DNA of 64,000 nucleotides from Candidatus Aenigmatarchaeota archaeon (GTDB taxonomy: Archaea; Aenigmatarchaeota; Aenigmatarchaeia; CG10238-14; SCSR01): assembly GCA_038998335.1 (NCBI GenBank), contig JAVZHQ010000001.1:672609-736608 (forward strand). The letters are read 5' to 3'. The translations under genes were made by a program, and so were the position numbers. This document shows positions 2,882 through 55,214 of the stretch, piece after piece; position 1 is the stretch's first letter, and the number at the start of each line of letters is the position of its first letter. Below the pieces are notes generated by a model. That model did no database searches and had not been told where the DNA came from. It worked only from the letters and a program-made list of their open reading frames with translations.

Positions 2882-2923
2882 AGATTACATTGTCCTCAGT
2901 TTTTTCCTGTTTTTCTACCATTT

Positions 2924-3712: not shown

Positions 3713-3791
3713 TAAATACACACCCTGTGTTAGTTATTGAAATACTGTTAAACTTATTTTAATTTAGAGAAATATCTTTAAAAGCTTTTTC

Positions 3792-6700
3792 TTAATAGTA
3801 GTATTCTTCTTCTGGTTTTTTCCAGAGTTTTATCTTAAGATAACCAAACTTCCATAAAACTATGAAAATTCCAGCAACTACCCCAACAACCACTAAGATT
3901 ATTAAAATTGTTGAAAAGTCTGATGATGGTTTTATAAACCTTTGAAGTAATTCGTCTACAATTTGCCTTAAAGTTTGATACCTCCTATTAGCTTCATTAT
4001 ACTTTGATAAAGCAGTTGAATAATCTCCTTGATTTAGAGCATTCTTGGCTTCATTCAATAAGTTTTTAATTTGGCCGAGCTCTGACCATAATGTTGAGTT
4101 AACTTTATCTCCCAAACTTTCCATATCCTTTTCTAAGGAGCTTACTCTTGAGGTAAGGTTATTTATTTTGCTTTCCAATTCTTTTTGGGTTTGAGGACAA
4201 TCTTGAGAACAAGTTATTTCTTCACCAGGTTCACAAATTTTATTACCACAATAAAATCCTGGACAATCAGAGCAGCTCGGATAACTTTCTCCTTCTTCAC
4301 AGATTCCATTATTGTTGCATGTAACTGAAGGACAATCTCTTGGGCAAGTTGTTCTATTCTCGTCTATATTGCAAACGCCGTCACCACAATAACAATCTTT
4401 TGGACAAGAAGTTGAATTTTCTTCTACATCGCATACCCCATTTCCACATTTTTGCTCTACGCATAAGTTTAACGCTCTGTCACAAACTTTTCCTGTAGGA
4501 CAACCACAATCTAAACAACAATTATCTTTGTTTTCTCCTTTTGAAGATTCACACTTTCCATCCCCGCAAGAAGGTAAAATAGAAGTTACTTTTACTTTTA
4601 AACTTACTGTTTTTATCCCAGCATCACTTTCTATTCTAACATAACCTTCATATTCTCCTGTTCTAAACAAAGTGCCGATTATAGAATAAGTTTTTGATTT
4701 TGAAGGTTGAATAGTATCAGTACCATAAAAGTTTGTACTTGTGTTTTCCACTCCATAAACTTCTATGCTGTAAATAGTTACTGCTACCTTTCCGTTGTTT
4801 GTTAAAGTAATCTTTTGTTCAAACCTTTGACCAGAGACTGCTACAATTGAAATTTCTAAAGGCGAGACAGAAATTTTTGGTGTTTCTTTTATTGAAATAG
4901 AAACTGGTATGCTTATTGTTTTTCCAGCATATTTTACAAAAATTTTTCCGTTGAAATTCTTTTCACCGATTTCAAAAGTTAAAGAAACATTTTGGCTTTC
5001 ACCAACTTTAAGTTCTCTCTCAAAACTTATGCTGGTAAATTGTTTGATTTCATCTGAAGCTTCTACAAGCAAATCAGTTATATCGGAATTACCGATATTT
5101 TTTAAAGTTATGTTTGTTTTAAAAGTTTTATTTGGGTAGGATTCGCCAGAAATTGCTGAAGGAGTAACGTTAAGTAAAAAGTTTGGCTTTTCAAGACCGA
5201 AAGCTAGAACTTTTCCTCCTGTTGATTTACCACTAGCCAAAATCTCAACAAAAAATTGATCTAAATCTAAGCCAATAATTTCTGCCTGAAAATTTGTGCC
5301 ATAGTTTGTGAAATCTCCTTGTTTATATAAAGACAGATCGAAAACTTTCCATACTCTGTAACTAAGGTTTGCGTTTTGATCGCTAGAGGAAACCAATAAA
5401 GCTAATCTTTTTTGGTCTTTGTTCCAATCAGTTTGCTTCACATCTATAATAATTTCTCCAGGGACTATCAGTCCGTCCATTCTTTCAACAAGATTGTTGC
5501 TGACAACTTCTCTTGCGCTAATTTTAACTCCGGAAATTTGTATATTGTCAAATGGGATGTTATAGCTTTTTGGTAATTTTTCATTTATCACCCAGAACTT
5601 TCCGACATTAAGGTAAAGATTTGGAAAATAAGAAAAAGAGTATTGAGTTGTTGTATATCCTGGATAAGTGTAAAGAAAAGAAGTGGTAGAAGGTGTTAGA
5701 GGATTTCCAGATGAATCTTTTACATCAAGAAAAAGAAAAAATTCTTTTTCCTTGGTTGGCCATTCAGGTAAAAGTTTCCAGTTGATTGAATAGCTACCAT
5801 AATTTTCGTTAAGGATGTTTAAACCATAAGCAAAAACAAAAATTGAAGCGTTAAGGCTTGGTGGACTAGCTGAAACTTCGTAAGTATAAACACCAAGCTT
5901 TTCAGGAGCAACAAAACAAGTTTGGTTTATACAAACTGAGCCTGAAAAAGTGCAAGTACACATGAGATTGCCTGTTGAAATATCCTTTATTTTAGCTGTC
6001 TTACCTTCGCAATTATCGCCTTGAATAATTGCTTTTACTGTCTCACCCTTTCTTACTGCAGGAGTTCCTGAAAGAGTTCCTAATAATTGAAAGCTAGTAA
6101 TGTTACAAGGCAATGGTGGCAAAACTTTAACATAAGAAAAACAAGCAGTAGATTTTGGTTCTGAACCAATCTGGTACGGAATTGCAACTTTAAAGTAGGT
6201 TTCAATTTCTTTTTGAACAGTTGGATAATAACATTCTAAGCTTATTCCGTCTCTTGATAGACCTTGGTCAACTAAGTTGTCAACTGTTACTACTTCTTCT
6301 TCAAGATAATCAGCACACTGCTTATGTAGTTTATTATAAGTAATCACGCTTCTCCAAGTAATTGAAGTATCTTTTCCATTTTTCAGCTTGAGTGTAAAGT
6401 TTGCTTTTCTATCACTATAAACTGTTTTGCTAGAAGGCTCTATAACACAATAAGGTTCGTTTGGTATATCTTTAACTTCTATCTTAAATATCGGGGAGAA
6501 GACATCTCTGTTTTTATTTCTTAGGTGAATTCTGCAGGTCCAGTTTCCTGCTTTGTCGACAAATATTTTTCCTGTGTAGGTTTCTTTTATTTGATCCTCC
6601 ATAGTACTTGAAACACAAGGAGTTGACGGCCTTCCTACATAAGGATCACATTCGTCTATCCAACCTCTAACATCATTTTCATCTGGTGGAACTATACCTG

Positions 6701-8702
6701 GCGGAAAACAATGAAGATTTGTATGGCACCTATATTGTTCCCTACCACACTTTTCCGGACTTTCTAAGGTTTCCCAGAGTTGCCAAGTTACTGTCACTAA
6801 ACTATTGACTATTACTCCTGTTGGAGGATACTCTATCCTCCCTATAGAAAATGGCTCTGAAATATTAATAGTTATTGGTGCAGGACCTTCCTGCCCGGTT
6901 ATATTGATTGTTCTTGCTAGAGCATCATCCCACCATTCGTCTATCCTTCCATCTTTGTCTGCATCAAAATTTGAAATTCTCGTATGAGCCCAAATCATAA
7001 CTCTTTGATTTCCTGTTGTTATAGGATAGAAGGAAGCTGGAAGTTTGCATCGAACAGTTATATTTTTCTGTGGTGTTAAAGCTATTTCAGAAGTTAAAAC
7101 TTCACAGGTTGCACCTTCTGGACAACTTCCTCTTTCGTTTGCACAACCTCCTCTATTGTTTTTAGCATCAAAGTAAAGGTCTACTCTTCCTTTTCCGTCT
7201 CTAGTTTCCCATGGATTGTTAAAATCAGAAACGTTCCAAAATTCTACTCCCACAAACCAATCTGTTTGCTCCTTTGAACCAACATTTTTAATAACAATGT
7301 TTACAGTTATATTATAATTCTGAAAGACTTGAGCTGTTCCTTGAGTAATTTTGTTTACAGAAACTTCTTCTATCCATGAATCATACATAACGTTACATTC
7401 ACACTCACTAGAGTTTTTATTTTTATATTCCCTTACTTGGTAAGCTGAAGAATATTTTTCATACTTGTAGTACTCTGGCTTAGAACATTTTACTGGGTTT
7501 TCTGTGTTGTCAGGATAAACTCCAGTAAAGTAAGAGCAATCTACATGATACTTACAATTGTTATCACATGAATAGGGATTTTGGGACCAACCAGGAGGTT
7601 TTTCGTCACAGGCTTCATCAGCACCACATGCAAACTCGCATTGAGCTCCACCATTATTACAGTTTCTTTCTGTACCTCCACTACAAACTGTACAATTCAC
7701 GCATTTTTTTGTTGTATTATCACATCTCCATTTTCCACCTGACCAAATACAATGATTATTATCATCGCAAGGACAATCTTCACGATTTTGTTTACATACA
7801 CCAGTTTTTTTGCAACAGTAATAACCTGAAGCACAATCAGAGTCAGATTGGCAAGAAGTTAAACAATTACCATTTCTACAGGCATAAGGCGAACAATCTG
7901 TTGAATATAGAAAACAAGTTTCTCCACATTTTTTTCTAACAGTTCCATCGCATGTACTATAACCTACAGGTTTTTCATCACATTCCTCACTCGCACCACA
8001 AGCTGACTCACATACAATCTCAACATTACAACCAACTGTTTCACAATCCCAAATCCCTGTAAATTCTATGCAACTTTTAGGAGTACCATAACATCTTTTG
8101 TATTGATTTGAATATTTACACCCTGCTAATTCGCATCTTTCCTTTCTTGTCTGTTCATCAGAAATTTCATTATAGGAGTCACATGACTTAGGAGTACCTT
8201 TACAAATTAAAGAAGAGGGAGGATGGTACAGCCCATTCCTGTCACCAAATTTCTTCCATTGATAGGAACCTAGACATTCGATGCACTGCTTTTCGCTTTT
8301 ATCCCATACGCCCATGTATTTGTGTTCTTTACATCCCCAGTCCCAATAATCTATACTGACTACGCAAGGCTCACCATTCCATTTATTGACATCTGGGCAC
8401 CTATACTCTTCACAAGCACAAGTGTTTGGTACTTCTTCTGGTGGGATGCCATCAGGACAACTACTCATACCATAGTAAATATAACCTTCACACCATTCTC
8501 CAAAATCCTGGCACTCGTTATTTTTATTTATTAAACATCTAGAAGTTCCTGAAAGATCGATTACTGCTTCGAAACAATAACCACAACCTAACACACCTAT
8601 CCAGTCCCCAGCGCATCTATAGTGACAACCAGCCCTCGCATCAGTAAATAGAACTAAAAAAGTTAAGAAAAACGATAATAAAACTATTTTATACCATTTC
8701 AT
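3792..8702 (-). CDS. Giant (~1636 aa) cysteine-rich secreted surface protein with N-terminal signal peptide, tandem Cys repeats, coiled coil and C-terminal TM anchor
   Basis: Signal peptide MKWYKIVLLSFFLTFLVLFTDARAG; >100 Cys in EGF/laminin-like spacing; five ~21-aa CGxGxC..CPxDC repeats (nt ~4194..4568); heptad-rich segment then TM ILIILVVVGVVAGIFIVLW and cytoplasmic tail KKPEEEYYY; many N-x-S/T sequons. Longest ORF starts TTG at 8714. Confidence 0.75.
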   Translation of the reverse strand: MKWYKIVLLSFFLTFLVLFTDARAGCHYRCAGDWIGVLGCGYCFEAVIDLSGTSRCLINKNNECQDFGEWCEGYIYYGMSSCPDGIPPEEVPNTCACEEYRCPDVNKWNGEPCVVSIDYWDWGCKEHKYMGVWDKSEKQCIECLGSYQWKKFGDRNGLYHPPSSLICKGTPKSCDSYNEISDEQTRKERCELAGCKYSNQYKRCYGTPKSCIEFTGIWDCETVGCNVEIVCESACGASEECDEKPVGYSTCDGTVRKKCGETCFLYSTDCSPYACRNGNCLTSCQSDSDCASGYYCCKKTGVCKQNREDCPCDDNNHCIWSGGKWRCDNTTKKCVNCTVCSGGTERNCNNGGAQCEFACGADEACDEKPPGWSQNPYSCDNNCKYHVDCSYFTGVYPDNTENPVKCSKPEYYKYEKYSSAYQVREYKNKNSSECECNVMYDSWIEEVSVNKITQGTAQVFQNYNITVNIVIKNVGSKEQTDWFVGVEFWNVSDFNNPWETRDGKGRVDLYFDAKNNRGGCANERGSCPEGATCEVLTSEIALTPQKNITVRCKLPASFYPITTGNQRVMIWAHTRISNFDADKDGRIDEWWDDALARTINITGQEGPAPITINISEPFSIGRIEYPPTGVIVNSLVTVTWQLWETLESPEKCGREQYRCHTNLHCFPPGIVPPDENDVRGWIDECDPYVGRPSTPCVSSTMEDQIKETYTGKIFVDKAGNWTCRIHLRNKNRDVFSPIFKIEVKDIPNEPYCVIEPSSKTVYSDRKANFTLKLKNGKDTSITWRSVITYNKLHKQCADYLEEEVVTVDNLVDQGLSRDGISLECYYPTVQKEIETYFKVAIPYQIGSEPKSTACFSYVKVLPPLPCNITSFQLLGTLSGTPAVRKGETVKAIIQGDNCEGKTAKIKDISTGNLMCTCTFSGSVCINQTCFVAPEKLGVYTYEVSASPPSLNASIFVFAYGLNILNENYGSYSINWKLLPEWPTKEKEFFLFLDVKDSSGNPLTPSTTSFLYTYPGYTTTQYSFSYFPNLYLNVGKFWVINEKLPKSYNIPFDNIQISGVKISAREVVSNNLVERMDGLIVPGEIIIDVKQTDWNKDQKRLALLVSSSDQNANLSYRVWKVFDLSLYKQGDFTNYGTNFQAEIIGLDLDQFFVEILASGKSTGGKVLAFGLEKPNFLLNVTPSAISGESYPNKTFKTNITLKNIGNSDITDLLVEASDEIKQFTSISFERELKVGESQNVSLTFEIGEKNFNGKIFVKYAGKTISIPVSISIKETPKISVSPLEISIVAVSGQRFEQKITLTNNGKVAVTIYSIEVYGVENTSTNFYGTDTIQPSKSKTYSIIGTLFRTGEYEGYVRIESDAGIKTVSLKVKVTSILPSCGDGKCESSKGENKDNCCLDCGCPTGKVCDRALNLCVEQKCGNGVCDVEENSTSCPKDCYCGDGVCNIDENRTTCPRDCPSVTCNNNGICEEGESYPSCSDCPGFYCGNKICEPGEEITCSQDCPQTQKELESKINNLTSRVSSLEKDMESLGDKVNSTLWSELGQIKNLLNEAKNALNQGDYSTALSKYNEANRRYQTLRQIVDELLQRFIKPSSDFSTILIILVVVGVVAGIFIVLWKFGYLKIKLWKKPEEEYYY

Positions 8703-9690
8703 TTTTAACACCAATCAAAATAATCCGATTATCATAAGAATAGTAAAATACGACATTTTTACCGTTTCTCGCTATTACCGAATTTTCACATTTTTTGCAT
8801 GGAGTTTGTGTTAATTTAGTTTTATCAACTGGTATGACAACAAATTTATTTAGGAAATTACCACAAACTTCATATTGGCAGTCGATTTTATAACCTGCAA
8901 ACTCTTTATCAAAATAATAAAGTAGTGTTAAATTTGCTCCTTCGCAGAAAGAGGATACCTCTACATATTTATTAAATTCTAAATTATCTATCGGACAATT
9001 AAAAACTTTTCTAAAAGATAATTCAGCTCTATCTTTTTCTTGAAGATTGTCTATCAAGATAGGTGGATATAAAGAATAGGTACCCATGTCTACCCATATC
9101 TTATAATTTCCATCAGTACACTTTACAACCAAGACAATAGTTGTAAAGTTTTTAATGTATGAGGAAAAATCGATAGAATGATTTTTAATTTCACAAGTAG
9201 AAAAAGATGGATATTTTTCTTTTATCTCTCTAAAAAGATAATCTAAAAAATTACTTTCTGAAACTTTTTTAAGCAAATTTGATTGGAAATCAAAAATAAA
9301 TGTCTTCAATTTATTTTCATAGACGCAATAAAATGATAATTGATATTCATTCTCGTATTCTTTTGAATCATAAAATTTACAATTTTCCAATTCTTCCCAT
9401 ACTTCTGGTTCTTCCCAAAGAAAGCTCCATCCATTCAGCTTGTAACTAATATTTCCACTTTTATACTCTGTATAGAAAGGCCTTCCGTTACAAACAAGCC
9501 AAAATTCACCATTATCGCCAAAACCATTTATTTTTTCTTTGACAATCTTACAAAATTCCAACTTTTCTTCAAGTAAATTTATCACTCTATTTCTAATATT
9601 ATTTGGAACTACTAAAAAGTACCAATAACAAATCACGATAATGACTATACCAAGTATTAAGAAAATCAAAGTTAATATCTTAATATTCAT
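8689..9690 (-). CDS. Membrane-anchored (N-terminal TM) Cys-containing extracellular protein, 333 aa, unknown function; co-transcribed with giant surface protein
   Basis: ATG start; N-terminal TM LILGIVIIVICYWYFLVV; stop overlaps start of 3792..8702 gene by 14 nt. Confidence 0.45.
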   Translation of the reverse strand: MNIKILTLIFLILGIVIIVICYWYFLVVPNNIRNRVINLLEEKLEFCKIVKEKINGFGDNGEFWLVCNGRPFYTEYKSGNISYKLNGWSFLWEEPEVWEELENCKFYDSKEYENEYQLSFYCVYENKLKTFIFDFQSNLLKKVSESNFLDYLFREIKEKYPSFSTCEIKNHSIDFSSYIKNFTTIVLVVKCTDGNYKIWVDMGTYSLYPPILIDNLQEKDRAELSFRKVFNCPIDNLEFNKYVEVSSFCEGANLTLLYYFDKEFAGYKIDCQYEVCGNFLNKFVVIPVDKTKLTQTPCKKCENSVIARNGKNVVFYYSYDNRIILIGVKNEMV

Positions 9691-9774: not shown

Positions 9775-11109
9775 ATGGCAAAATGCCCTTATTGTGGTTC
9801 AGAAAAAACCACATCTTACAAAACACCAGAAGGAGAAAAGGGTCATTATTGCTATGATTGCAAAAGAGAATTTAAAACTATAGGAGATAAAATTCTAACC
9901 GGAATTTTTAAAAAGAAAGAAACAAAAAAAGAAGGCGAGGAAGGAAAAAAGAAAGAGAAAAGAACTTCTATAATTCCTGCTTTGTTTCTTTTAGCTGCTC
10001 TTGTAATAACTTTTCTTGTTCCTCTTGACCATACAACAAAAACTCTTATTGTTGCAGCAATGGGTATATTTGTAATGGTGGTTTATGGTTTTTTCAGTCT
10101 TGCAAGCTTTGGGTTTATAATCTTAATAATTTACTTGGTTTTTAACTTGCCAGTAGTACATGCTGAACTTGAAAAATATGAAGTTTATGAGCATTTTAAA
10201 AGAATTCAGCAAGAGTTTTGCATAGGCACTTGCATTTTATCAAATGCTTTTTATACAAGAGCAGACCCAAGGGCTTATTGTGAATCTCAATGTGGAGTTG
10301 TTCAAATAAGTAAAGTAGCAGGAGCTTGCACAGAATGCTTAACTTATGAAAAGTATGAAAGAATATACCCTGCAAGAGAAGGTTCTTCTGAAATCGTTGA
10401 TATAAACTTGAAAATGGCAAAATCGAACACGATAGCAAAAAATGTTTGGGTTGAAGTCTTTACTGATAAAGAAAATTTACCTGCAGAAATAAGTAAATGC
10501 AGCTTTAGCGAAACTTGCGAGCTTAGAAGTGAGGAAGAAAAAAGAGTAATAGCTACTTTTAATGAGAATGATGTGAAATGTGAAGGCTCTTTTTTCAAGT
10601 ACAGAATAAAAGTTGGCTATGATTTTGAAACAAAATCAGACAACTCTTTTGATTTGGTAAAAGAGTTTACAGGAACTATAACTGAAATTAAAAGTCCATC
10701 CTCAGAAGGGCCTTTAAGCGTAAGTATAGGAGGGCAAAAATACTATGTAGTTGGAGAAGATGATTATGCCTATATTTCAATATATGTTTCAAACGAAGGA
10801 AAAGGTTCTGTTAAAATTAAAGAGATAAAAGTTTATCAAATTCCACCATACGGACAAGAAGAATTAAGCTTTACTTATGATTGTACAAAAGGCTATATTT
10901 TCAGTAAAGCCGATTACTATTATTCAGAAAAAACTTTAACTGTTAGTGGAACTATTTCTTCACTTGGAAAAAATGAAAAGGATGCTATAATTTGCAAGTT
11001 TTCACTTCCTAGCGACATTCCTTCTTCAAGGCTAACTTACAGTTTTAAAGCAGAAGTAAGTTATTCTTATGAGCTAGAGAATAGCTACAGTATACCATGC
11101 AAAAAATAG
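9775..11109 (+). CDS. Membrane protein with N-terminal cytoplasmic zinc ribbon (CPYCG..17..CYDCK), 2-3 TM helices and a large Cys-rich, beta-rich extracellular domain
   Basis: CxxC..CxxC at residues 4-29; Lys/Glu linker; TM segments IIPALFLLAALVITFLV / LIVAAMGIFVMVVYGFF / FIILIIYLVFNL; ATG start. Confidence 0.5.
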   Translation: MAKCPYCGSEKTTSYKTPEGEKGHYCYDCKREFKTIGDKILTGIFKKKETKKEGEEGKKKEKRTSIIPALFLLAALVITFLVPLDHTTKTLIVAAMGIFVMVVYGFFSLASFGFIILIIYLVFNLPVVHAELEKYEVYEHFKRIQQEFCIGTCILSNAFYTRADPRAYCESQCGVVQISKVAGACTECLTYEKYERIYPAREGSSEIVDINLKMAKSNTIAKNVWVEVFTDKENLPAEISKCSFSETCELRSEEEKRVIATFNENDVKCEGSFFKYRIKVGYDFETKSDNSFDLVKEFTGTITEIKSPSSEGPLSVSIGGQKYYVVGEDDYAYISIYVSNEGKGSVKIKEIKVYQIPPYGQEELSFTYDCTKGYIFSKADYYYSEKTLTVSGTISSLGKNEKDAIICKFSLPSDIPSSRLTYSFKAEVSYSYELENSYSIPCKK

Positions 11110-11110: not shown

Positions 11111-11494
11111 TTAGCAACCACAAGCTTGTGCACATTTTTGGTAATCGGTATAACCTGCATATCTACAAACCTCATCCATAGTAACTTTTCCGTCAATTTC
11201 GCCTAAAATACCATCTATACATCTCGTGTTTGGGATTAAAGCTAGAGGAACTGTGTAATTTACATTTGACTTACCGTCAGACTTGCAATTAGTTGACCAA
11301 GCTTTACATGCTGTTTTAAAGATTGTTTCAGGATCAGAACAAGGTGGACAGCATACGATGTACCACCACCAGATAGCCCCTATAAAGAAAACTAAACATA
11401 TAACAAAAATAAAACAATAGAAAATCTTAAGAATAGTTTTTACTCTGTTGTGCAAATGAAAAGGTGCTAACCTCCACAACATTTTTGTCGGCAA
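11111..11494 (-). CDS. Cys-rich membrane-anchored protein with EF-hand-like Ca-binding loop, paralog of 11467..11781
   Basis: TM ILKIFYCFIFVICLVFFIGAIWWWYIV then CCPPCSDPE...ALIPNTRCIDGILGEIDGKVTMDEVCRYAG aligning with neighbour; N-terminus/start uncertain (28-nt overlap with upstream gene). Confidence 0.4.
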   Translation of the reverse strand: MPTKMLWRLAPFHLHNRVKTILKIFYCFIFVICLVFFIGAIWWWYIVCCPPCSDPETIFKTACKAWSTNCKSDGKSNVNYTVPLALIPNTRCIDGILGEIDGKVTMDEVCRYAGYTDYQKCAQACGC

Positions 11495-11781
11495 TCTGAT
11501 ACTCCAGCATAACTACAGGCTTCTTCCATTGTTACCTTACCATCACCATCAATATCTACACATCTTGTGTCTGGAATTAAAGCTGGAGGAACTATGTAAT
11601 CAGCTGGGTTATCCTGACAGTGGGAAGTTGCCCAACCTCTACAGGCTTGGGTAATGACATACTCTGGATCAGGGCAATGTGGGAAAAACCACAGATACCA
11701 AACAACTACTGCAAGCAAAACAACTACTGCAATTATCAGAATCACAAGATATTCAACTGGTAAAGCAATTCCTTTGCTCAT
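11467..11781 (-). CDS. Pilin-like (class III signal peptide) Cys-rich protein with canonical EF-hand/dockerin-like loop DIDGDGKVTMEE
   Basis: MSKG|IALPVEYLVILIIAVVVLLAVVVWYLWFF (KG then hydrophobic helix with Glu); C-terminal domain with 9 Cys and 12-residue DxDxDGxVxxxE loop. Confidence 0.5.
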   Translation of the reverse strand: MSKGIALPVEYLVILIIAVVVLLAVVVWYLWFFPHCPDPEYVITQACRGWATSHCQDNPADYIVPPALIPDTRCVDIDGDGKVTMEEACSYAGVSDCRQKCCGG

Positions 11782-11812: not shown

Positions 11813-12277
11813 CTAAGCTTTTATTTCATAAGCTATCTCAGAAACAGTCTCGGCAGAAAAGTCAAGCATACCAGCTTGAGAATATTTTTCAGCGGAAAAT
11901 TTTAATCTTACGATAACTTTTGTCAAATCGGAATTGAAATCCAGAGAAATCTTTTCCAACTTAATTGAAGATTCTAATGGTATAGGATCAAAATTTTCGT
12001 TCAATCTTTCTAAAAAGGTTTGCCTTAAGCTATCATCGTTTTTCAAATCATCAAATGTTATGCCCATATCTGAAAGTGTTTTTTCAAAAGAAAACTTTAA
12101 AGCTTGTTTAGCGTTTAGCTTTGCAAACTCTATTTTATTTATAAGGTTGTAAACTCTAGAAACATAGTCAGAAAATTCGCATTCTTGGCTAAGCCTGCTT
12201 GCAAGGAAAAAATCAACTAAAACAAAAATTACTAGCACCACAACAAAACCAGCAAGATATTTTACGTATCCTTTCAT
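11813..12277 (-). CDS. Pilin-like protein (class III signal peptide-like N-terminus), 154 aa
   Basis: MKG|YVKYLAGFVVVLVIFVLVDFFL; in-operon position, 4-nt gap to next gene. Confidence 0.45.
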   Translation of the reverse strand: MKGYVKYLAGFVVVLVIFVLVDFFLASRLSQECEFSDYVSRVYNLINKIEFAKLNAKQALKFSFEKTLSDMGITFDDLKNDDSLRQTFLERLNENFDPIPLESSIKLEKISLDFNSDLTKVIVRLKFSAEKYSQAGMLDFSAETVSEIAYEIKA

Positions 12278-12281
12278 TCTT

Positions 12282-12833
12282 TCACCCTGTAACCAAAATT
12301 ACTTTTAACTTTTGAAGGTTTGGTAAAGTTAAAGTAGTGTATGAAGAATACCTTCCACCAAACTGAAAGTAAGTTAGCATACTTCCAAGGTTGCAAGGGT
12401 TATACTCTTTAGTTTCTATTTCAGAATTGCCAAATTCAAGGATATTCTCCTCTTCGTTTCTCACAGCAAGGTAATAATCCCTATTCGGAATGATTGTTTC
12501 CATCTTGGTTCTAATTAATTCTTCTAAATCAATTTCATTATTATCAACAACAATTCTTTTACTTTTTTCAAGAGCACCATAAGCCAAAAGCTCTTGAACT
12601 TGCTTGTTTGTTTTTGTTTCAGTTGAACCTAAAAGAGTGAACAAAGCATGGTCTGAGGTTAAAGGGGTGTGAAGCGGGCTTAAAGTAACTTTAACTGTTA
12701 CTGGAGCATGTAACCAGCCGTGAGTAAGTCCGGAAACATACTGCCAGCCCCATAAAAAGTTTGGCAAAAGCATAAGTATTATGAAGCATGTTAGTACTAC
12801 TATCGCAAAAAGAATAGCCTCAGTTACAGCCAT
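12282..12833 (-). CDS. Pilin-like / pilus-associated protein with N-terminal hydrophobic helix, 183 aa
   Basis: MAVTEAILFAIVVLTCFIILMLL N-terminus; tight operon spacing. Confidence 0.4.
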   Translation of the reverse strand: MAVTEAILFAIVVLTCFIILMLLPNFLWGWQYVSGLTHGWLHAPVTVKVTLSPLHTPLTSDHALFTLLGSTETKTNKQVQELLAYGALEKSKRIVVDNNEIDLEELIRTKMETIIPNRDYYLAVRNEEENILEFGNSEIETKEYNPCNLGSMLTYFQFGGRYSSYTTLTLPNLQKLKVILVTG

Positions 12834-12837
12834 TCCT

Positions 12838-13269
12838 CTAATAAATTCCCACCTCCATTCTTCCTTCTACAAACTTATCAGGATATTTTATTAAAACAGG
12901 GTAGGATAAAGTATCTTCTATCTCAAAACCTTTTGAGCCTATAACCCAATGGCCGTTCTCACTGTCTGTAATTTCGACATAGAAGTTTTTCTTGAAAGAA
13001 ATGCTGCAGCTAGGATTTGAATCTAGTTTGCTTTTATCAAAAACTCCACGCCAGTTATTGCCGTTTTCCTTATAAACCAAGCATTCATGATTTAAAAGAT
13101 TCTCCATCAAATCTATAAGATATCTCGCATCTTCTCTTGCCTCAAAAGTTACTTGGTATTGCATAACCCCTAACAAACAGCCTAGAATTGTCATGGTCAG
13201 AAGAAGAAAAGAAATAACTTTAAGCATAACCTCTGGTGGAATTGAAACCTGACCTTTCAGGAAAGCCAA
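12838..13269 (-). CDS. Pilin-like protein (class III signal peptide-like: KGQ then hydrophobic helix), 143 aa
   Basis: MAFLKG|QVSIPPEVMLKVISFLLLTMTILGCLLGV. Confidence 0.45.
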   Translation of the reverse strand: MAFLKGQVSIPPEVMLKVISFLLLTMTILGCLLGVMQYQVTFEAREDARYLIDLMENLLNHECLVYKENGNNWRGVFDKSKLDSNPSCSISFKKNFYVEITDSENGHWVIGSKGFEIEDTLSYPVLIKYPDKFVEGRMEVGIY

Positions 13270-13721
13270 ATTTTATCACCTTCTTTTCTTGAACTAATAA
13301 AAAGGCCTTGCTCAGTGCAATATTTGTCAAACTTTTCAACGTTGATGTAATTCGGCTTAACTATAACAAAAGTAATTTCGGAAGTTTCCTTAATAATCAT
13401 TTCAGGACCTTCACCTTCCTCTGGCTCTATTTTCACTCCACCAGGAACTTTAAACTTTACTTTTTCTTCACTTATGTTAACAGTACATTTTGATAAACCT
13501 TTAACTCTAAATTCGAAAGAAAAGTTTCCATAAAAGCTTGAAGAAGCAGAAATTAAAGAGCTTAACCTTTGAGCGTTAGCCCTTGCATCGTAAAAACCCA
13601 TGCTTGTGGCTATTCCTACTCCACCGTAAAGAATAACATAAATCAAGACTAAAGCAACTATTATTCCGCCAATGAACATCATAAAATAGGTTGTGAATAA
13701 GGAACCTTTTACCATGAGCAT
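13257..13721 (-). CDS. Pilin-like protein (class III signal peptide-like), ~154 aa from internal ATG
   Basis: Longest ORF (to 13880) overlaps upstream gene by 172 nt; internal starts ATG 13721/13715 give M(LM)VKG|SLFTTYFMMFIGGIIVALVLIYVIL immediately after the upstream stop (13709..13711). Confidence 0.45.
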   Translation of the reverse strand: MLMVKGSLFTTYFMMFIGGIIVALVLIYVILYGGVGIATSMGFYDARANAQRLSSLISASSSFYGNFSFEFRVKGLSKCTVNISEEKVKFKVPGGVKIEPEEGEGPEMIIKETSEITFVIVKPNYINVEKFDKYCTEQGLFISSRKEGDKIWLS

Positions 13722-15910
13722 TCGCCAAAATTGCTTGCCCCCATTATATTTTGAGGAATGTAAGGATAGTTTACAACCAGGTCTCTTGTTACATCTATAA
13801 ATAACCTTACAGCATTTCCTAAGAATCCGCACACTGATTTTATCTTGTCGGCATCCGGCACTAGCCCAAGAGTTAAACATTTAACTATATCCATCCAATT
13901 TAAAGCTATTTCGGTAGGTAAGAATAAACTGCAAACTATAGCTGTAATGCAATCACCAAACCAAGCAGCAGCTTCTGCACCTACATAAAAATTAACAACT
14001 CCTTCTGTAGCATAGCAGTAATTCGGAACATCCTTAAACTCTTCTGGTTTTGTTTCGTCTGTGCAAAGAATCGGTTTGACATAAACAGTATCAGGCTCAT
14101 TACCACTAACATAAAGACGTAATTTTGCAAAGCAGGGACTTACCAAATAAAATCTGGGGTTTGATGCAACCACAGAATTTCTTTCTAATTTAATATTTTT
14201 AATTCCCCTTTCTTTGCAACTTTCTGGAAGAGGAAGTCTTGTGACATGATACCCTTTTTGCAAACAAATATAACCTTCTCCACAATAAGTTCCTGTTGTT
14301 GTATAATAAGAAATTTGTTTATCCCAATAAGTTGCACCTATAGGAGTATACATGTCTTGAAAACGAAGCCAAATATAGCCATAAGGTTCTAATTTTTCTT
14401 TTACACCTTCTACAAGATGGTATAAAGTTCCTTTTTTCGCATGAAAAAGATACTTTGCTTCTTTTGGGTCATTAGGTACTTCTTTAAGGTATTCCATAAA
14501 TTTATCACCAAGAACTTCATCAGAAGATAAACCATAATTTTTTATCAAACCTAAAAGTTTAGAATCCTTTGGCATAAGCAGAACACTTCCATCATCAGCC
14601 ATATGCCTTAGCTTTTCGGCAAATTCTATCATAAATTTTTGGGCCTCTTTTTTTGAAGTAACATCAACAGGAAGACCTTCTTTCATCATAGTCTCAACAA
14701 CTTCCCAAGATAATTCTTCATCGTATTTACCAACATACTCTAATTGATTGGCAAGAGTATGCAAACCTTTACCAGCCATAGCCTCGTCCCCAAAAGCTTC
14801 ACCAATTCTTGCTTTTAAAGAATTCCAACCTTCAGAAATTCTTTCCTTGATTCTTTGTCTTAAACTATTTTCGTCTATTTCTATATCCCCACTCTCTGTA
14901 AATATAACTCCGGCTAGATTTTCTGTCCCACCACGCTCTCCAGCTAATATGTATAAAGCATCTTTTACTTCCTTCCCTTCATTTGTACTGATATCAACAA
15001 CCCATTTAACTCCAACTTTTTTAACTTTACCTTGAGTCTGTAGGTCATACATTACACTTTCGAAACCTTCGTCTGCTGTTTCTTCATAAACTCTTGAAAA
15101 TTCTTCTGCAAGCTTCATTGACCTTGAAATTCTTGCTCTTTCAGCAAGTTTTGAAACAGCTTTTGGAATAATTATACTTGCTGTCCTTAAAGCTGGATAA
15201 ACCCATGCAGCATAATAAGCACATTCTCCCAAAGTTAAATCTGTTAATGAAAGACAAACTAATGTTGTAGCTATAGTAACTTCTGCAAAATGTTTAGCCT
15301 CTGTGATGATTACTTTTCCTGCTTTAACCACTATCTTACCAGAGTCTATTAATTTTTTAATTTTTTCATGAGCTACTTTAAAAGCTTCTATTCTTCCTGC
15401 TGCTTTTCCAAATGCATCTTTTATCTTGCTATAACCTGGGCTCATTCCTAGATATAGCATATCTATAGTAAGAGTTACCATCATGTTAGAAGTCCAGGGT
15501 GTGTCTTCTGACCAAGGAATAACCAAAGCTGAAATTGGATCTTGAACTCTTACATTATTAATATAAGTTTCCCACATAGACCATGAATACGAAGGAAATT
15601 CCTCATAATAAACATAAAAGTAAGGATCTGAACCTAAGTTTGCTCCTGAAATTCCTAAGAACTGATGAGTTAAACCTTTTAATCCTGTACTTTGGGCAAG
15701 CATAAAGTTTGTGTAGGCTTCGCCATTTTGACAAGCCAGATCTAAAGCATTGTAAAGTTTTGCAAAATTTTGATCTGCTATATTTTCATAGTAATTCTGA
15801 AAAAGGAATAGATAAATTGCAAAAGCTATTCCTATAGCTATTAACAAGCCTGCCAAAAACTTTAGCATTTGAGCACTTATAGTTAAACCTTTCATTTTAT
15901 ACAACCACAA
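13709..15910 (-). CDS. Large (733 aa) protein with class III signal peptide-like N-terminus; candidate pilus tip/minor pilin-adhesin
   Basis: MWLYKMKG|LTISAQMLKFLAGLLIAIGIAFAIYLFLF then ~700 aa soluble domain with several Cys; in pilus operon. Confidence 0.5.
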   Translation of the reverse strand: MWLYKMKGLTISAQMLKFLAGLLIAIGIAFAIYLFLFQNYYENIADQNFAKLYNALDLACQNGEAYTNFMLAQSTGLKGLTHQFLGISGANLGSDPYFYVYYEEFPSYSWSMWETYINNVRVQDPISALVIPWSEDTPWTSNMMVTLTIDMLYLGMSPGYSKIKDAFGKAAGRIEAFKVAHEKIKKLIDSGKIVVKAGKVIITEAKHFAEVTIATTLVCLSLTDLTLGECAYYAAWVYPALRTASIIIPKAVSKLAERARISRSMKLAEEFSRVYEETADEGFESVMYDLQTQGKVKKVGVKWVVDISTNEGKEVKDALYILAGERGGTENLAGVIFTESGDIEIDENSLRQRIKERISEGWNSLKARIGEAFGDEAMAGKGLHTLANQLEYVGKYDEELSWEVVETMMKEGLPVDVTSKKEAQKFMIEFAEKLRHMADDGSVLLMPKDSKLLGLIKNYGLSSDEVLGDKFMEYLKEVPNDPKEAKYLFHAKKGTLYHLVEGVKEKLEPYGYIWLRFQDMYTPIGATYWDKQISYYTTTGTYCGEGYICLQKGYHVTRLPLPESCKERGIKNIKLERNSVVASNPRFYLVSPCFAKLRLYVSGNEPDTVYVKPILCTDETKPEEFKDVPNYCYATEGVVNFYVGAEAAAWFGDCITAIVCSLFLPTEIALNWMDIVKCLTLGLVPDADKIKSVCGFLGNAVRLFIDVTRDLVVNYPYIPQNIMGASNFGECSW

Positions 15911-16200
15911 TGTCTAAAAAACTCTTCTGCACTATAGCCTGCATCACTTCTTATTTGATCTAAAGAACAACCATAAACATCGTTAATCATCTTTATATCA
16001 TCCTCATCCATATCACGATCATTATCAACATCGCATCCTCTGTTCCTCAATTCCAAACATCCTAACTCAACCAAAGAACCACAACCTGTTTGAGGAGGAA
16101 AAAGGTACAAATAAGCTATTATCGAAACCAAAACTATAAGAGCAACTATAACTATTACTGCAGTGTTTACAGGTAAACTAATCCCCTTGATTTCCACCAC
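15892..16200 (-). CDS. Pilin-like Cys-rich protein with acidic EF-hand-like loop (DVDNDRDMDEDD)
   Basis: MVEIKG|ISLPVNTAVIVIVALIVLVSIIAYLYLF; C-terminal domain with 7 Cys and DxDxDxD loop. Confidence 0.45.
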   Translation of the reverse strand: MVEIKGISLPVNTAVIVIVALIVLVSIIAYLYLFPPQTGCGSLVELGCLELRNRGCDVDNDRDMDEDDIKMINDVYGCSLDQIRSDAGYSAEEFFRHCGCIK

Positions 16201-16339
16201 CTTTTATCAAATCCCAGAACAGTTTTGTAAGATCTTCAGCCCATTTTTTTCCTGCGGTTAAGAAAATTAAAGCAACAAGAAGAATTATTGCAAAAGCTAC
16301 TATCATTACCACAACTTTAAAGCTTATTTTTCCTTTCAT
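16178..16339 (-). CDS. Unannotated mini-pilin (53 aa, below ORF-track cutoff): MKGKISFKVVVMIVAFAIILLVALIFLTAGKKWAEDLTKLFWDLIKGGGNQGD
   Basis: Hand translation, ATG 16339..16337, stop TAG 16180..16178; class III-like MKG + hydrophobic helix; 3' end overlaps start of 15892..16200 in another frame. Confidence 0.4.
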   Translation of the reverse strand: MKGKISFKVVVMIVAFAIILLVALIFLTAGKKWAEDLTKLFWDLIKGGGNQGD

Positions 16340-16346
16340 CCTAATT

Positions 16347-16472
16347 CTACCCTGGTGGGTTATATCTCCACTCCCAAAAACTTGGAAGTCTTAAAACAAC
16401 AAAAACTATGACAAAAAGAATAATCGCTGCTATTATTATTCCAATTATCAGCCATAGCATATCCTCGTCCAT
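16347..16472 (-). CDS. Possible 41-aa single-TM micro-protein (MDEDMLWLIIGIIIAAIILFVIVFVVLRLPSFWEWRYNPPG)
   Basis: Hand translation only; sits between mini-pilin genes; no further support. Confidence 0.2.
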   Translation of the reverse strand: MDEDMLWLIIGIIIAAIILFVIVFVVLRLPSFWEWRYNPPG

Positions 16473-16491
16473 TATAATCCTTAATTTTTAG

Positions 16492-16683
16492 CTACAACGT
16501 GCTACAATCAAAGTTCGGATCTGAAACTTTTCTTATAAGGCATTCTATATACTTCCCCACATTAAACAAATTGCTCAAAGCTTCAGCTCCGTAACCTCTC
16601 ACATAAAGTGCAAAAACTACAATTATTAACAAAATTATAACAGTAACTACTACTGCTATTATCACGTTCATCGGTAGTTCCAT
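16492..16683 (-). CDS. Small single-TM protein (63 aa), possible minor pilin
   Basis: MELPMNVIIAVVVTVIILLIIVVFALYV; in tandem small-gene array. Confidence 0.35.
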   Translation of the reverse strand: MELPMNVIIAVVVTVIILLIIVVFALYVRGYGAEALSNLFNVGKYIECLIRKVSDPNFDCSTL

Positions 16684-16692
16684 AATTAATAT

Positions 16693-16905
16693 TTATCCTC
16701 TTGTAAATATATCGCATACGCCTGCTATAGGGTTTCCCTTACCAAAAACTTGCTCAAAAACTTGTTTACAAAGAACAACAGCACCCTCAGCTAAATTTCT
16801 TCCTGTAACTAAACTAAAAACAAGAACTGAAACTATAATAATCGCAATAATTGCTACAATTATTCCTACTATAACCTTCCAGCTTAGTTGTATAGCTCCT
16901 TTCAT
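16693..16905 (-). CDS. Mini-pilin (70 aa), class III signal peptide-like
   Basis: MKG|AIQLSWKVIVGIIVAIIAIIIVSVLVF; C-terminal CDIF motif shared with 17089..17316. Confidence 0.55.
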   Translation of the reverse strand: MKGAIQLSWKVIVGIIVAIIAIIIVSVLVFSLVTGRNLAEGAVVLCKQVFEQVFGKGNPIAGVCDIFTRG

Positions 16906-16906
16906 T

Positions 16907-17086
16907 TTACTTCCTTTCCGTGATTTTTTTCCAAAGTTCTACTAAATCCCTAATCGTAATGTTTTTAAAAAAATTAACTATCTCGTCAGAAAGTCCTGTA
17001 GTAAAAAGCAAGATTATCAAAAAAGCAGCTATAGAAGCTATTATAATCAAAAGTACTTTCCAGTTAAGCTCTATTACACCTTTCAT
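16907..17086 (-). CDS. Mini-pilin (59 aa from MKG start), class III signal peptide-like
   Basis: Internal ATG 17086 gives MKG|VIELNWKVLLIIIASIAAFLIILL; the first 30 nt are identical to the 5' end of 17089..17316; the longest ORF would overlap the upstream stop. Confidence 0.55.
   Translation of the reverse strand: MKGVIELNWKVLLIIIASIAAFLIILLFTTGLSDEIVNFFKNITIRDLVELWKKITERK
17057..17086. repeat. 30-nt segment identical to 17287..17316 (5' ends of two tandem mini-pilin genes)
   Basis: tttccagttaagctctattacacctttcat in both; encodes MKGVIELNWK. Confidence 0.7.
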
Positions 17087-17088
17087 TC

Positions 17089-17316
17089 TTATCCTTGCGG
17101 ACATTCTTGAAATATATCACAAATTCTAAGAGCACTTGCTCCATACCCCAAAAACTGCAACTTGCTAATCAAAAGCAAGCATCCTTCCCTTGCCCCTGCA
17201 CTCAAAGCACAAGTGTTAATCATTCCAAAAAGTATCAAAATAACTATTAGTAAGAGAATTATACCTGAAATTAAAAATACCAAGATTTTCCAGTTAAGCT
17301 CTATTACACCTTTCAT
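17089..17316 (-). CDS. Mini-pilin (75 aa), class III signal peptide-like
   Basis: MKG|VIELNWKILVFLISGIILLLIVILILF; ATGA overlap with upstream 43-aa gene. Confidence 0.55.
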   Translation of the reverse strand: MKGVIELNWKILVFLISGIILLLIVILILFGMINTCALSAGAREGCLLLISKLQFLGYGASALRICDIFQECPQG

Positions 17317-17444
17317 ACAAACTCAACTTTTATTGGAATTATTTTCATGTAAAAGACTGCGATGAAAACAAAAATTAAGATTATAGCCAAGCCTATAACT
17401 ATCCAAAGCAATGTTTGAACATGACTTTCTAACACACCTTTCAT
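17313..17444 (-). CDS. Unannotated mini-pilin (43 aa): MKGVLESHVQTLLWIVIGLAIILIFVFIAVFYMKIIPIKVEFV
   Basis: Hand translation; ATG 17444..17442 overlaps TGA stop of TadC/FlaJ gene (ATGA) and its own TGA overlaps next ATG (ATGA). Confidence 0.4.
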   Translation of the reverse strand: MKGVLESHVQTLLWIVIGLAIILIFVFIAVFYMKIIPIKVEFV

Positions 17445-26562: not shown

Positions 26563-26580
26563 CAAAACAAATTTTAAATA

Positions 26581-47584: not shown

Positions 47585-47594
47585 ATTCTCACTA

Positions 47595-49736: not shown

Positions 49737-49754
49737 AAATTATTATTCCTTCGT

Positions 49755-55206: not shown

Positions 55207-55214
55207 TGGGGGTT

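What the first reader, a model, noticed from the sequence alone, without database searches (positions are those of the whole stretch)
11111..11781. Pilin-like proteins fused to small Cys-rich domains with a canonical EF-hand/dockerin-type Ca-binding loop
11467..11781 encodes KG|IALPVEYLVILIIAVVVLL followed by a ~70-aa domain with 9 Cys and the 12-residue loop DIDGDGKVTMEE. This matches the EF-hand/dockerin consensus D-x-D-x-D-G-x-V-x-x-x-E exactly. The overlapping downstream gene 11111..11494 is a paralog (ALIPNTRCIDGILGEIDGKVTMDEVCRYAG vs ALIPDTRCVDIDGDGKVTMEEACSYAG). A Ca-binding module on a pilin-type anchor is not a described pilin architecture. It could mediate calcium-dependent docking (cohesin-dockerin-like) of other surface proteins or filament-to-filament contacts.
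Basis: partly seen in the sequence, partly recalled or inferred. Interest (0 to 1): 0.65.

Follow-up and report, generated by a model that had tools for sequence, protein, structure and literature searches.

The report
Mini archaeal pilins with calcium-type loop
Two adjacent genes, plus a third nearby, in a DPANN archaeon's pilus operon encode very small pilin-like proteins whose 70-residue, disulfide-rich head carries one EF-hand-type calcium-binding loop; this is a real but unstudied lineage-specific family, and the loop is more likely a stabilising calcium site than a dockerin-like docking module.

Summary
ORF 11467..11781(-) encodes a 104-aa protein, MSKG|IALPVEY... followed by 29 hydrophobic residues. 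It has 8 Cys (not 9) and the loop DIDGDGKVTMEE (residues 76-87). That 12-residue pattern occurs once in the six-frame translation of the window (0.01 expected). The downstream ORF is a 46%-identical paralog with a degraded loop and no KG motif. A third, distant paralog lies at 15892..16200.

All three sit in one minus-strand operon of a Candidatus Aenigmatarchaeota MAG: a FlaI/TadA-type ATPase, a polytopic platform-like protein, and 15 ORFs with a single N-terminal hydrophobic segment. The protein belongs to a family of about 200 clusters with no Pfam model. Every named member is from Aenigmatarchaeota.

The family has six conserved Cys. A positionally fixed [FY]-D-x-[DN]-x-[DNS]-G motif occurs in 77 of 255 members (4 expected). 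AlphaFold (pLDDT 89) puts the loop before an exiting helix, with no entering helix and no second loop. There is no significant PDB fold match.

So this is the pilin's own head, not a fused EF-hand or dockerin module. EF-hand and dockerin Pfam scores are below threshold, and no cohesin was found. The most likely role is a structural Ca2+ site, as in T2SS pseudopilins and archaellins. I call it a new variant of a known kind, of moderate interest.

The parts
19483..21723 (-). Secretion/assembly ATPase of the type IV filament superfamily (746 aa), first gene of the operon
   Evidence: Pfam T2SSE 49.7 bits, above the 24.9 cut-off. NCBIfam TadA-family 1.5e-35 and FlaI 4.1e-35, both below the equivalog cut-offs.
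17441..19486 (-). Polytopic membrane protein (681 aa), inferred FlaJ/TadC-like platform
   Evidence: At least 7 hydrophobic segments. Only a weak T2SSF hit, E=0.026; the ortholog position in L005 is also 'T2SSF (weak)'. No PDB sequence hit. Role inferred from position and topology.
16178..17444 (-). Array of seven tiny ORFs (41-75 aa), each with one N-terminal hydrophobic segment. Five carry MKG directly before that segment (four open with it; 16907..17104 has it after a 6-residue leader); candidate minor pilins.
   Evidence: Called as genes in three independent assemblies.
15892..16200 (-). Third, distant paralog of the family (102 aa; MVEIKG|ISLPVNTAV..., 6 Cys, C-terminal CGC)
   Evidence: hhalign 97.3% probability, E=2.6e-11 against alignment A1.
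15997..16032 (-). Acidic loop DVDNDRDMDEDD(I) in the third paralog; the only PROSITE PS00018 match in the window
   Evidence: 1 match; 0.095 expected per shuffled window; coordinates.
13709..15910 (-). 733-aa protein with a class-III-like N-terminus (MKG|LTISAQMLKFLAGLLIAIGIAF...), 14 Cys, no Pfam hit; candidate large pilin-like or tip protein
11813..13880 (-). Four further ORFs (207/152, 143, 183 and 154 aa) with one N-terminal hydrophobic segment; three carry KG just before it
   Evidence: no Pfam or NCBIfam family.
11467..11781 (-). The 104-aa Cys-rich pilin-like protein of the finding (identical to NCBI MAG protein QXS48_01505)
   Evidence: AlphaFold pLDDT 83 and 89.
11770..11781 (-). Putative class III leader MSKG (cleavage inferred after Gly4)
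   Evidence: Sequence. A [KR]G-type motif before the hydrophobic segment occurs in 241 of 255 family members. Cleavage not tested.
11683..11769 (-). Hydrophobic N-terminal segment IALPVEYLVILIIAVVVLLAVVVWYLWFF, predicted as one long helix (residues 9-32)
   Evidence: Highly conserved in all close homologs except the downstream-paralog lineage (P0008).
11521..11556 (-). 12-residue EF-hand-type loop DIDGDGKVTMEE (residues 76-87)
   Evidence: Model: beta bridge at residues 83-84 (loop positions 8-9); exiting helix starts at residue 85 (loop position 10).
11111..11494 (-). Downstream paralog (114-127 aa depending on the start; 12 Cys; KT instead of KG)
   Evidence: The ortholog is P0008.
11171..11206 (-). 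Degenerate loop LGEIDGKVTMDE in the paralog (position 1 Leu, position 3 Glu)

Best explanation
These are small type IV pilin-like subunits of an Aenigmatarchaeota-specific family. They are made with a class III-type leader (MSKG|), presumably cleaved by a prepilin peptidase encoded elsewhere. They are then inserted through their long hydrophobic N-terminal helix into a filament, or a short pseudopilus-like assembly, built by the FlaI/TadA-type ATPase and platform protein at the head of the same operon. The exposed part is a miniature head of about 70 residues, mostly helix and coil. It is held together by three family-wide disulfides plus one extra pair in this clade, inferred to be C36-C74. 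The head also carries a single DxDxDG/EF-hand-type loop lying between conserved Cys2 and Cys3. I take the loop to bind one Ca2+ ion within the same subunit. That would rigidify the segment between a short beta strand and the following helix, making it a structural stabiliser of the head and hence of the filament. Shown here: the sequence features, family membership, operon context and predicted secondary structure. Inferred: leader cleavage, filament assembly, disulfide pairing, Ca2+ binding and the stabilising role.
For: Context:
- The ATPase has T2SSE at 49.7 bits and FlaI/TadA matches near 1e-35.
- It is followed by a protein with at least 7 hydrophobic segments and by 15 ORFs with a single N-terminal hydrophobic segment, at least 10 of them with KG before it.
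- The same gene order occurs in four assemblies.
- Family members sit singly or in tandem at the 3' end of similar loci in other genomes (L005, L006).

Family:
- 187 representatives at 50% identity and 203 clusters at 90% identity, mostly 100-130 aa and matched over their full length.
- C47, C55, C89, C97, C101 and C102 are at least 90% conserved.
- Every hit that carries an organism name is Aenigmatarchaeota or 'archaeon'.
- The family profile's best PDB matches are archaeal T4P/pilin chains (8fk7, 8fjs, 8pfb, 8tib, 8fj5), though not significant at E=0.26-0.64.

Loop:
- D.[DN].[DNS]G occurs in 77 of 255 members against 4.0 in composition-preserving shuffles.
- 69 of those 77 lie after the second Cys, and 59 of 77 are preceded by F or Y.
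- The full 12-residue loop occurs in 17 of 255 against 0.04 expected.
- AlphaFold with two different alignments gives the same topology. The beta bridge falls at loop positions 8-9 and the helix starts at position 10, as in EF-hand loops.
- The top Foldseek ranks are all EF-hand proteins, though not significant.

Precedent for structural metal sites in type IV filament subunits: T2SS major pseudopilin (bioRxiv 10.64898/2026.04.10.717868), an archaellin site required for filament integrity (PMC6500986), and a disulfide-stabilised thermophilic archaeal pilin (PMC7347861).
Against: - No pilin or class III signal model in Pfam or NCBIfam matches.
- No prepilin peptidase (Peptidase_A24) was seen in the parts of the window surveyed.
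- The predicted head has neither the alpha-beta roll of bacterial pilins nor the Ig-like sandwich of known archaeal pilins. It has no significant PDB match.
- The canonical loop is absent or degraded in about 70% of the family, in the adjacent paralog, and in the orthologs P0006 and P0007. Ca2+ therefore cannot be essential for the fold.
- EF-hand Pfam scores (16 bits) are below the cut-offs of about 25 bits.
Confidence: 0.55

Rival explanations
1. Calcium-dependent docking or adhesion. The acidic loop is exposed on the filament surface and uses Ca2+ to bridge to a partner. The partner could be a cohesin-like protein, the host cell's S-layer or glycans, or neighbouring filaments (bundling).
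For: - The loop resembles a dockerin F-hand half-repeat. Dockerin_1 matches its second half in the family members P0044 and P0070, at 21-22 bits against a cut-off of 22.9.
- DPANN archaea depend on physical attachment to hosts, and pili are proposed mediators (PMC8407114; PMC6393860).
- Ca-dependent adhesion through an EF-hand-like site is known for PilY1 (PMC3248442).
- The loop region is the most variable part of the head, as expected for a surface that is under diversifying pressure.
Against: - There is a single loop, not the duplicated 22-residue dockerin segment. The protein of the finding has no Dockerin_1 hit at all.
- No cohesin family appears among the Pfam annotations of the genes surveyed.
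- The motif is lost in close orthologs and in the tandem paralog.
- Nothing here shows that the loop is surface-exposed.
Confidence: 0.17
2. These are not filament subunits. They are small disulfide-rich surface or secreted proteins that only share a class III-like or signal-anchor N-terminus. They could be displayed at the membrane like the substrates of the Sulfolobus bindosome, or exported as effector or toxin-like peptides by the type IV filament-like machine.
For: - No pilin model matches.
- The head is unlike known pilin heads.
- The paralog at 11111..11494 lacks the KG site and would remain membrane-anchored.
- The high Cys content and small size recall secreted toxins. There are single weak ShK and thionin hits in the family.
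- NCBIfam lists a weak bindosome ATPase (BasE) match, 1e-10, for the ATPase.
Against: - The 28-residue N-terminus is highly conserved among most of the close homologs (the downstream-paralog lineage excepted), which are 49-77% identical overall. That fits helix-helix packing in a filament core better than a passive anchor.
- A KG-type motif is present in 241 of 255 members.
- The genes lie in tandem arrays within T4P-type operons in several genomes.
- The ShK and thionin hits are far below threshold.
Confidence: 0.13
3. The loop binds no metal. It is an acidic Asp/Gly-rich turn that resembles the EF-hand consensus by convergence or low-complexity bias, and the disulfides provide all the stability.
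For: - All EF-hand Pfam scores are below threshold.
- The PDB phmmer E-value of 3e-5 comes from summing four weak repeats in one target. The best single stretch has an i-Evalue of about 1.8.
- PROSITE PS00018 fails at position 13.
- There is no entering helix and no paired loop.
- Many members have long insertions after DxDxDG, so no Glu-12 equivalent follows.
Against: - Enrichment is about 19-fold over shuffles at one fixed position, with a conserved aromatic residue in front.
- Every ligand position (1, 3, 5, 12), Gly6 and hydrophobic position 8 are canonical in this protein.
- Dx[DN]xDG loops bind Ca2+ in near-identical fashion in at least twelve unrelated structural contexts that lack helix-loop-helix (PMC3123361).
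Confidence: 0.12

Closest known systems
Archaeal type IV pilins and DPANN 'dark-matter' pilin loci (Makarova, Koonin & Albers 2016; Makarova, Wolf & Koonin 2019, PMC6393860)
   Same: Short basic leader ending in Gly, a long hydrophobic N-terminal helix, and an operon with a FlaI/TadA-type ATPase, a TadC/FlaJ-like membrane protein and many divergent small pilin-like genes. DPANN loci of exactly this kind, with unrecognisable pilins, have been described in general terms.
   Different: Solved archaeal pilins have beta-sandwich heads. Here the head is predicted to be about 70 residues of helix and coil with 3-4 disulfides and a DxDxDG loop. No pilin Pfam or NCBIfam model matches. This specific family is not named in the papers found.
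Flp/Tad-type small pilins
   Same: Very small subunits encoded downstream of a TadA-like ATPase, often in tandem paralogous copies.
   Different: From my own knowledge, Flp pilins are about 50-60 residues with essentially no globular head and a G|xxxxEY processing motif. Here there is a 70-residue disulfide-rich head. Relationship not tested.
Calcium site of T2SS major pseudopilins (GspG/PulG) and the metal site of archaellin FlaB1
   Same: A structural metal ion within the head of a type IV filament subunit, needed for subunit or filament stability (bioRxiv 10.64898/2026.04.10.717868; PMC6500986). This is the function I propose here.
   Different: The folds and ligand arrangements are different and there is no sequence relationship. 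Those sites are not 12-residue EF-hand loops.
EF-hand / Dx[DN]xDG calcium-binding loops (Rigden et al. 2011, PMC3123361)
   Same: The linear motif D-x-D-x-D-G, with hydrophobic position 8 and Glu at position 12, followed by an exiting helix.
   Different: No entering helix, no paired second hand, and sub-threshold Pfam scores. It fits the broader class of DxDxDG loops in non-EF-hand contexts rather than the EF-hand domain family.
Dockerin type I (F-hand) and the Excalibur domain
   Same: Extracellular loop-helix Ca2+ motifs without an entering helix. Excalibur also combines DxDxDG with conserved Cys.
   Different: A dockerin needs two tandem loop-helix segments and a cohesin partner; here there is one loop and no cohesin was found. 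Excalibur gave no hit in the Pfam scans run, and its DxDxDGxxCE signature (recalled from memory) is not present.
PilY1/PilC EF-hand-like site and modular pilins such as S. sanguinis PilB (PMC3248442; PMC8179133)
   Same: Metal-dependent function associated with type IV pili. Functional modules carried on pilins are widespread (more than 1,200 proteins in 264 architectures).
   Different: PilY1 is a large non-pilin beta-propeller. PilB has a complete pilin module plus a separate vWA module. Here there is no separate module, because the loop lies inside the only head domain.

Membership tests
Type IV pilin / class III signal peptide proteins | Short positively charged leader ending in a small residue (G/A/S), directly followed by at least 20 hydrophobic residues forming the N-terminal helix | tested here: met
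   MSKG|IALPVEYLVILIIAVVVLLAVVVWYLWFF; helix 9-32 in both models; a KG-type motif in 241 of 255 family members. The paralog at 11111..11494 has KT and does not meet this feature.
Type IV pilin / class III signal peptide proteins | Encoded with the assembly ATPase and platform protein of a type IV filament machine | tested here: met
   The ATPase is clear. The platform rests on a weak T2SSF hit plus topology. The operon is conserved in four assemblies.
Type IV pilin / class III signal peptide proteins | Match to curated pilin or class III signal models (Pfam, NCBIfam) | tested here: not met
   No such family at E<=0.1 for the window proteins, nor at E<=0.01 for 112 family members.
Type IV pilin / class III signal peptide proteins | Processing by an A24 prepilin peptidase (PibD/FlaK/EppA type) | not testable with these tools
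   No Peptidase_A24 among the window genes surveyed, and no G.[GH]D motif (a pattern I recalled for these peptidases) in the unannotated polytopic ORFs. The rest of the 938-kb contig could not be read.
Type IV pilin / class III signal peptide proteins | Polymerises into a helical filament | not testable with these tools
   Needs cryo-EM or proteomics.
EF-hand domain | 12-residue loop with ligands at positions 1, 3, 5 and 12, Gly at 6 and a hydrophobic residue at 8 | tested here: met
   D76, D78, D80, G81, V83 and E87.
EF-hand domain | Helix-loop-helix: an entering helix before the loop | tested here: not met
   Residues 65-75 are coil in both AlphaFold models; only the exiting helix (85-92) is present.
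EF-hand domain | Hands occur in pairs; Pfam score above the gathering threshold | tested here: not met
   A single loop. EF-hand_5 scores 16.2 bits against 25.9, and EF-hand_1 scores 14.6 against 25.4. PS00018 fails at position 13 (Ala88; one search lists only the other paralog).
Dockerin type I | Two tandem 22-residue loop-helix (F-hand) segments; Pfam Dockerin_1 above threshold | tested here: not met
   No Dockerin_1 hit for the window protein. The best family members match only the second half of the profile, at 21-22 bits against 22.9.
Dockerin type I | A cohesin partner in the genome | tested here: inconclusive
   No cohesin family among the Pfam annotations for most of the window. The rest of the genome was not searched.
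Excalibur extracellular Ca-binding domain | Match to the Pfam Excalibur model / DxDxDGxxCE signature | tested here: not met
   Not reported in any Pfam scan run. The sequence after the DG is KVTMEEAC.
Dx[DN]xDG calcium-binding loops (context-independent motif, PMC3123361) | The linear motif Dx[DN]xDG | tested here: met
   DIDGDG. The motif is enriched about 19-fold at a fixed position across the family.
Dx[DN]xDG calcium-binding loops (context-independent motif, PMC3123361) | Actual Ca2+ coordination | not testable with these tools

The most novel reading that the evidence does not exclude
These proteins are the main building blocks of an Aenigmatarchaeota-specific host-attachment pilus. Their head would be a previously unseen, mostly helical, disulfide-stapled mini-fold organised around a single EF-hand loop. 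Ca2+ occupancy of that loop would control filament integrity or binding to the host envelope. That would make it a calcium-switched pilin with no structural counterpart among bacterial or archaeal pilins.
Probability: 0.2. Interest if true: 0.65.

Novelty: new variant of a known kind. Interest (0 to 1): 0.42.

Why it matters
DPANN archaea such as Aenigmatarchaeota live attached to other cells. Their surface filaments are the prime candidates for host recognition, yet their pilins are 'hypothetical proteins' that no model recognises. This analysis defines a sizeable lineage-specific family with a clear signature: a KG leader, six conserved Cys, the motif [FY]DxDxDG, and a C-terminal CGC. The predicted head is unlike solved pilins. 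The family gives a concrete target for structural work and for testing whether calcium stabilises or regulates archaeal pili. It would also add another structural context to the list of DxDxDG calcium loops. It does not reveal a new kind of system: the machine is an ordinary archaeal type IV filament locus, and metal sites in such subunits are already known.

Tried and rejected
- The search for related loci with the broad alignment A2 failed for lack of a conserved stretch. With A1 it found only 3 loci among species-representative genomes.
- NCBIfam and PHROGs gave nothing for the Cys-rich proteins.
- The platform protein has no PDB sequence relative.
- A search for a prepilin peptidase among the unannotated polytopic ORFs at 23-28 kb, using a G.[GH]D pattern I recalled for these peptidases, found none.
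- I rejected a true EF-hand pair and a dockerin (single loop, no entering helix, sub-threshold scores).
- I rejected a 'fusion' of a separate module. The family aligns over its full length, and the total length is about 100 aa.
- I rejected chance occurrence of the loop.
- I did not rely on the PDB phmmer E-value of 3e-5 to E. histolytica CaBP1. It sums four repeats that each match the same query loop, and the best single stretch is not significant.
- Disulfide connectivity could not be derived, because no coordinates were available. The C36-C74 pairing is inferred only from the joint presence of these two Cys in one clade.
Full report
**What is in the sequence**

ORF 11467..11781(-) encodes a 104-residue protein. 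It starts MSKG, followed by 29 hydrophobic residues (IALPVEYLVILIIAVVVLLAVVVWYLWFF). A 70-residue C-terminal part follows, with 8 cysteines at positions 36, 47, 55, 74, 89, 97, 101 and 102.

Residues 76-87 are DIDGDGKVTMEE (11521..11556). The pattern D.[DN].[DN]G.[ILV]...[ED] occurs exactly once in the six-frame translation of the 64-kb window, at this site. Shuffled windows give 0.01 matches on average.

The next ORF downstream (11111..11494) is a paralog, 46% identical over 101 residues, E=3e-24. It differs in three ways:
- Its start codon is uncertain: TTG 11494, ATG 11482 or TTG 11455.
- It has KT instead of KG before the hydrophobic segment.
- Its loop is LGEIDGKVTMDE, which lacks the position-1 Asp.

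hhalign gives 97% probability against the close-homolog alignment. It contains the only PROSITE PS00018 EF-hand match in the window, DVDNDRDMDEDDI. The main protein fails that pattern at its 13th position (Ala88).

**Genomic context**

The 104-aa protein is identical to a hypothetical protein of a Candidatus Aenigmatarchaeota MAG, and the longest contig that carries it is 938 kb. The gene order is the same in four assemblies.

On the minus strand, one operon runs as follows:
- A 746-aa ATPase at 19483..21723. Pfam T2SSE scores 49.7 bits, above threshold. NCBIfam TadA-family and FlaI matches are near 1e-35.
- A 681-aa protein with at least 7 hydrophobic segments and a weak T2SSF hit.
- Fifteen ORFs that each have a single N-terminal hydrophobic segment. 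At least ten have KG immediately before that segment.

The two Cys-rich genes are the last in the operon. This is an archaeal type IV filament locus of the kind already described for DPANN genomes, in which the pilins are unrecognisable 'dark matter' (PMC6393860). Aenigmarchaeota MAGs are reported to carry FlaI/FlaJ homologs and type IV pili (PMC8407114).

No prepilin peptidase was seen among the window genes surveyed.

**The family**

A single-sequence search found only nine relatives. A profile search of 1.8 billion representatives found 187 at E<=1e-3. Most are 100-130 aa and are matched from end to end. A second profile search found 203 clusters at 90% identity.

None has a Pfam domain on record. 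Every hit that carries an organism name is Aenigmatarchaeota/Aenigmarchaeota, or in one case simply 'archaeon'. One JGI record calls a member 'Flp pilus assembly protein TadG'.

The family consensus is MKGI(E/S)LPIN-hydrophobic...AC...C...I.I..[FY]D.[DN].[DN]G...D.L..LC...C...CGC. Six Cys are at least 90% conserved. The clade of this window adds two more, C36 and C74.

In other genomes, members lie at the end of comparable operons, singly or in tandem arrays (L005, L006).

The family profile's best PDB matches are archaeal type IV pilin and archaellin-like chains (8fk7, 8fjs, 8pfb, 8tib, 8fj5). They match through the N-terminus and are not significant, at E=0.26-0.64.

**The loop is a family trait, not a graft**

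D.[DN].[DNS]G is present in 77 of 255 members, against 4.0 expected from shuffling each ectodomain. In 69 of the 77 it falls after the second Cys. In 59 of the 77 it is preceded by Phe or Tyr.

The complete 12-residue EF-type loop occurs in 17 of 255 members, against 0.04 expected.

Many members have an insertion of up to about 25 residues between the DxDxDG and the next helix. In the window protein the distance to the next Cys is the shortest seen (13 residues), so the helix follows the loop directly. This supplies Glu at position 12 and produces a textbook loop.

Among the close relatives the loop is canonical in the window protein, P0003, P0004, P0010 and P0015. It is partial in P0002 and P0005. 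It is degraded in P0006, P0007 and the tandem paralog. Metal binding is therefore probably widespread in the family but dispensable for the fold.

**Predicted structure**

AlphaFold2 gave the same topology with a 10-sequence alignment (pLDDT 83) and a 112-sequence alignment (pLDDT 89):
- a long N-terminal helix, residues 9-32;
- a helix at residues 39-51;
- coil, with a two-residue bridge at residues 63-64 paired with residues 83-84;
- a helix at residues 85-92;
- a helix at residues 97-102.

Relative to the loop (D76 is position 1), the bridge falls at positions 8-9 and the exiting helix starts at position 10, as in EF-hand loops. There is no entering helix, because residues 65-75 are coil, and there is no second loop.

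**Comparison with named families**

- EF-hand Pfam models score 14-16 bits against cut-offs of about 25.
- Dockerin_1 does not hit the window protein. In two other members it matches only the second half of the profile, just below threshold.
- Excalibur is not reported in any scan.
- The PDB phmmer hit to Entamoeba CaBP1 (E=3e-5) sums four repeats that each match the same query loop. The best single stretch is not significant.

The protein is therefore not a member of the EF-hand, dockerin or Excalibur domain families. It fits the broader, context-independent class of Dx[DN]xDG calcium loops, which bind Ca2+ in near-identical fashion in at least a dozen unrelated folds (PMC3123361).

**Interpretation**

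The best-supported reading is a miniature type IV pilin-like subunit. Its only head domain is stapled by 3-4 disulfides and probably holds one structural Ca2+ ion.

The precedents are:
- the calcium site that stabilises T2SS major pseudopilins (bioRxiv 10.64898/2026.04.10.717868);
- the archaellin metal site required for filament integrity (PMC6500986);
- the disulfide that stabilises a thermophilic archaeal pilin (PMC7347861).

The closest relatives come from hot-spring MAGs (PMC8407114). The wider family's named source records are other Aenigmatarchaeota MAGs whose habitats I did not check.

It is also weakened by loss of the loop in orthologs.

The claim that a metal-binding element on a pilin is undescribed is too strong. 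PilY1 (PMC3248442) and the MIDAS-bearing PilB among more than 1,200 modular pilins (PMC8179133) are counter-examples. No paper in the searched library describes this family or an EF-type loop inside an archaeal pilin head.

**Verdict**

- Novelty: a new variant of a known kind, namely an uncharacterised lineage-specific pilin family with an unusual head and a recurrent calcium-type loop.
- Interest is moderate, at 0.42.

Noticed in passing
window 38002..42861 (-): A 1619-aa ORF is a RadA/Rad51 recombinase. It is broken into four Rad51 stretches by about three inteins that carry LAGLIDADG homing-endonuclease domains (Rad51 2.3e-74, Intein_splicing 6.9e-57, LAGLIDADG_3 9.2e-63).
   Followed up: partly
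window 16178..17444 (-): Seven tandem tiny ORFs (41-75 aa), each little more than a (M)KG leader and one hydrophobic helix. They are called as genes in several assemblies and may be minimal Flp-like or minor pilins.
   Followed up: partly
window 13709..15910 (-): A 733-aa protein with a class-III-like N-terminus (MKG|LTISAQ...), 14 Cys concentrated in the C-terminal third, and no Pfam or NCBIfam hit. It sits in the middle of the pilin array and is a candidate large tip or adhesin pilin.
   Followed up: no
window 26074..28250 (+), also 23141..23836 (-) and 24647..25276 (-): Four tandem paralogous polytopic membrane proteins (162-190 aa) plus two membrane proteins with coiled-coil tails, all without a Pfam family. 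They lie divergently next to the pilus ATPase gene. None shows a G.[GH]D motif (a pattern I recalled for prepilin peptidases).
   Followed up: partly
window 3792..8714 (-), 8689..9690 (-), 9775..11109 (+): Flanking the pilin genes are three further proteins: a 1640-aa protein (only a weak CARDB hit), a 333-aa protein with a signal anchor and 13 Cys, and a 444-aa protein with an N-terminal zinc ribbon, a TM region and 16 Cys. All may be surface proteins of unknown function.
   Followed up: no
window about 43983..60474 (STT3 gene at 47595..49736, -): A large glycosylation cluster: an STT3/AglB oligosaccharyltransferase, several GT1/GT2/GT4 glycosyltransferases, a flippase-like Polysacc_synt protein and a radical SAM enzyme. 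The Cys-rich pilin head itself has no N-x-S/T sequon.
   Followed up: no
L006 5175..5684: In another Aenigmatarchaeota genome, an unrelated 169-aa MKG-type pilin-like protein also carries a DxDxDG loop (DANKDGTIDSPY). This type of loop may recur in several pilin families of the lineage.
   Followed up: no
family members P0018, P0034, P0116, P0146 (not in the window): Some family members carry C-terminal Cys-rich extensions of 80-120 residues. P0116 has repeated DNDGDGAIDTND / DNDADTKTD motifs. These are genuinely modular versions of the same pilin.
   Followed up: no
window 2600..3721 (-): A free-standing LAGLIDADG_3 protein (262-265 aa) lies next to an Alba chromatin protein gene, according to the precomputed Pfam annotations of the same locus.
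   Followed up: no
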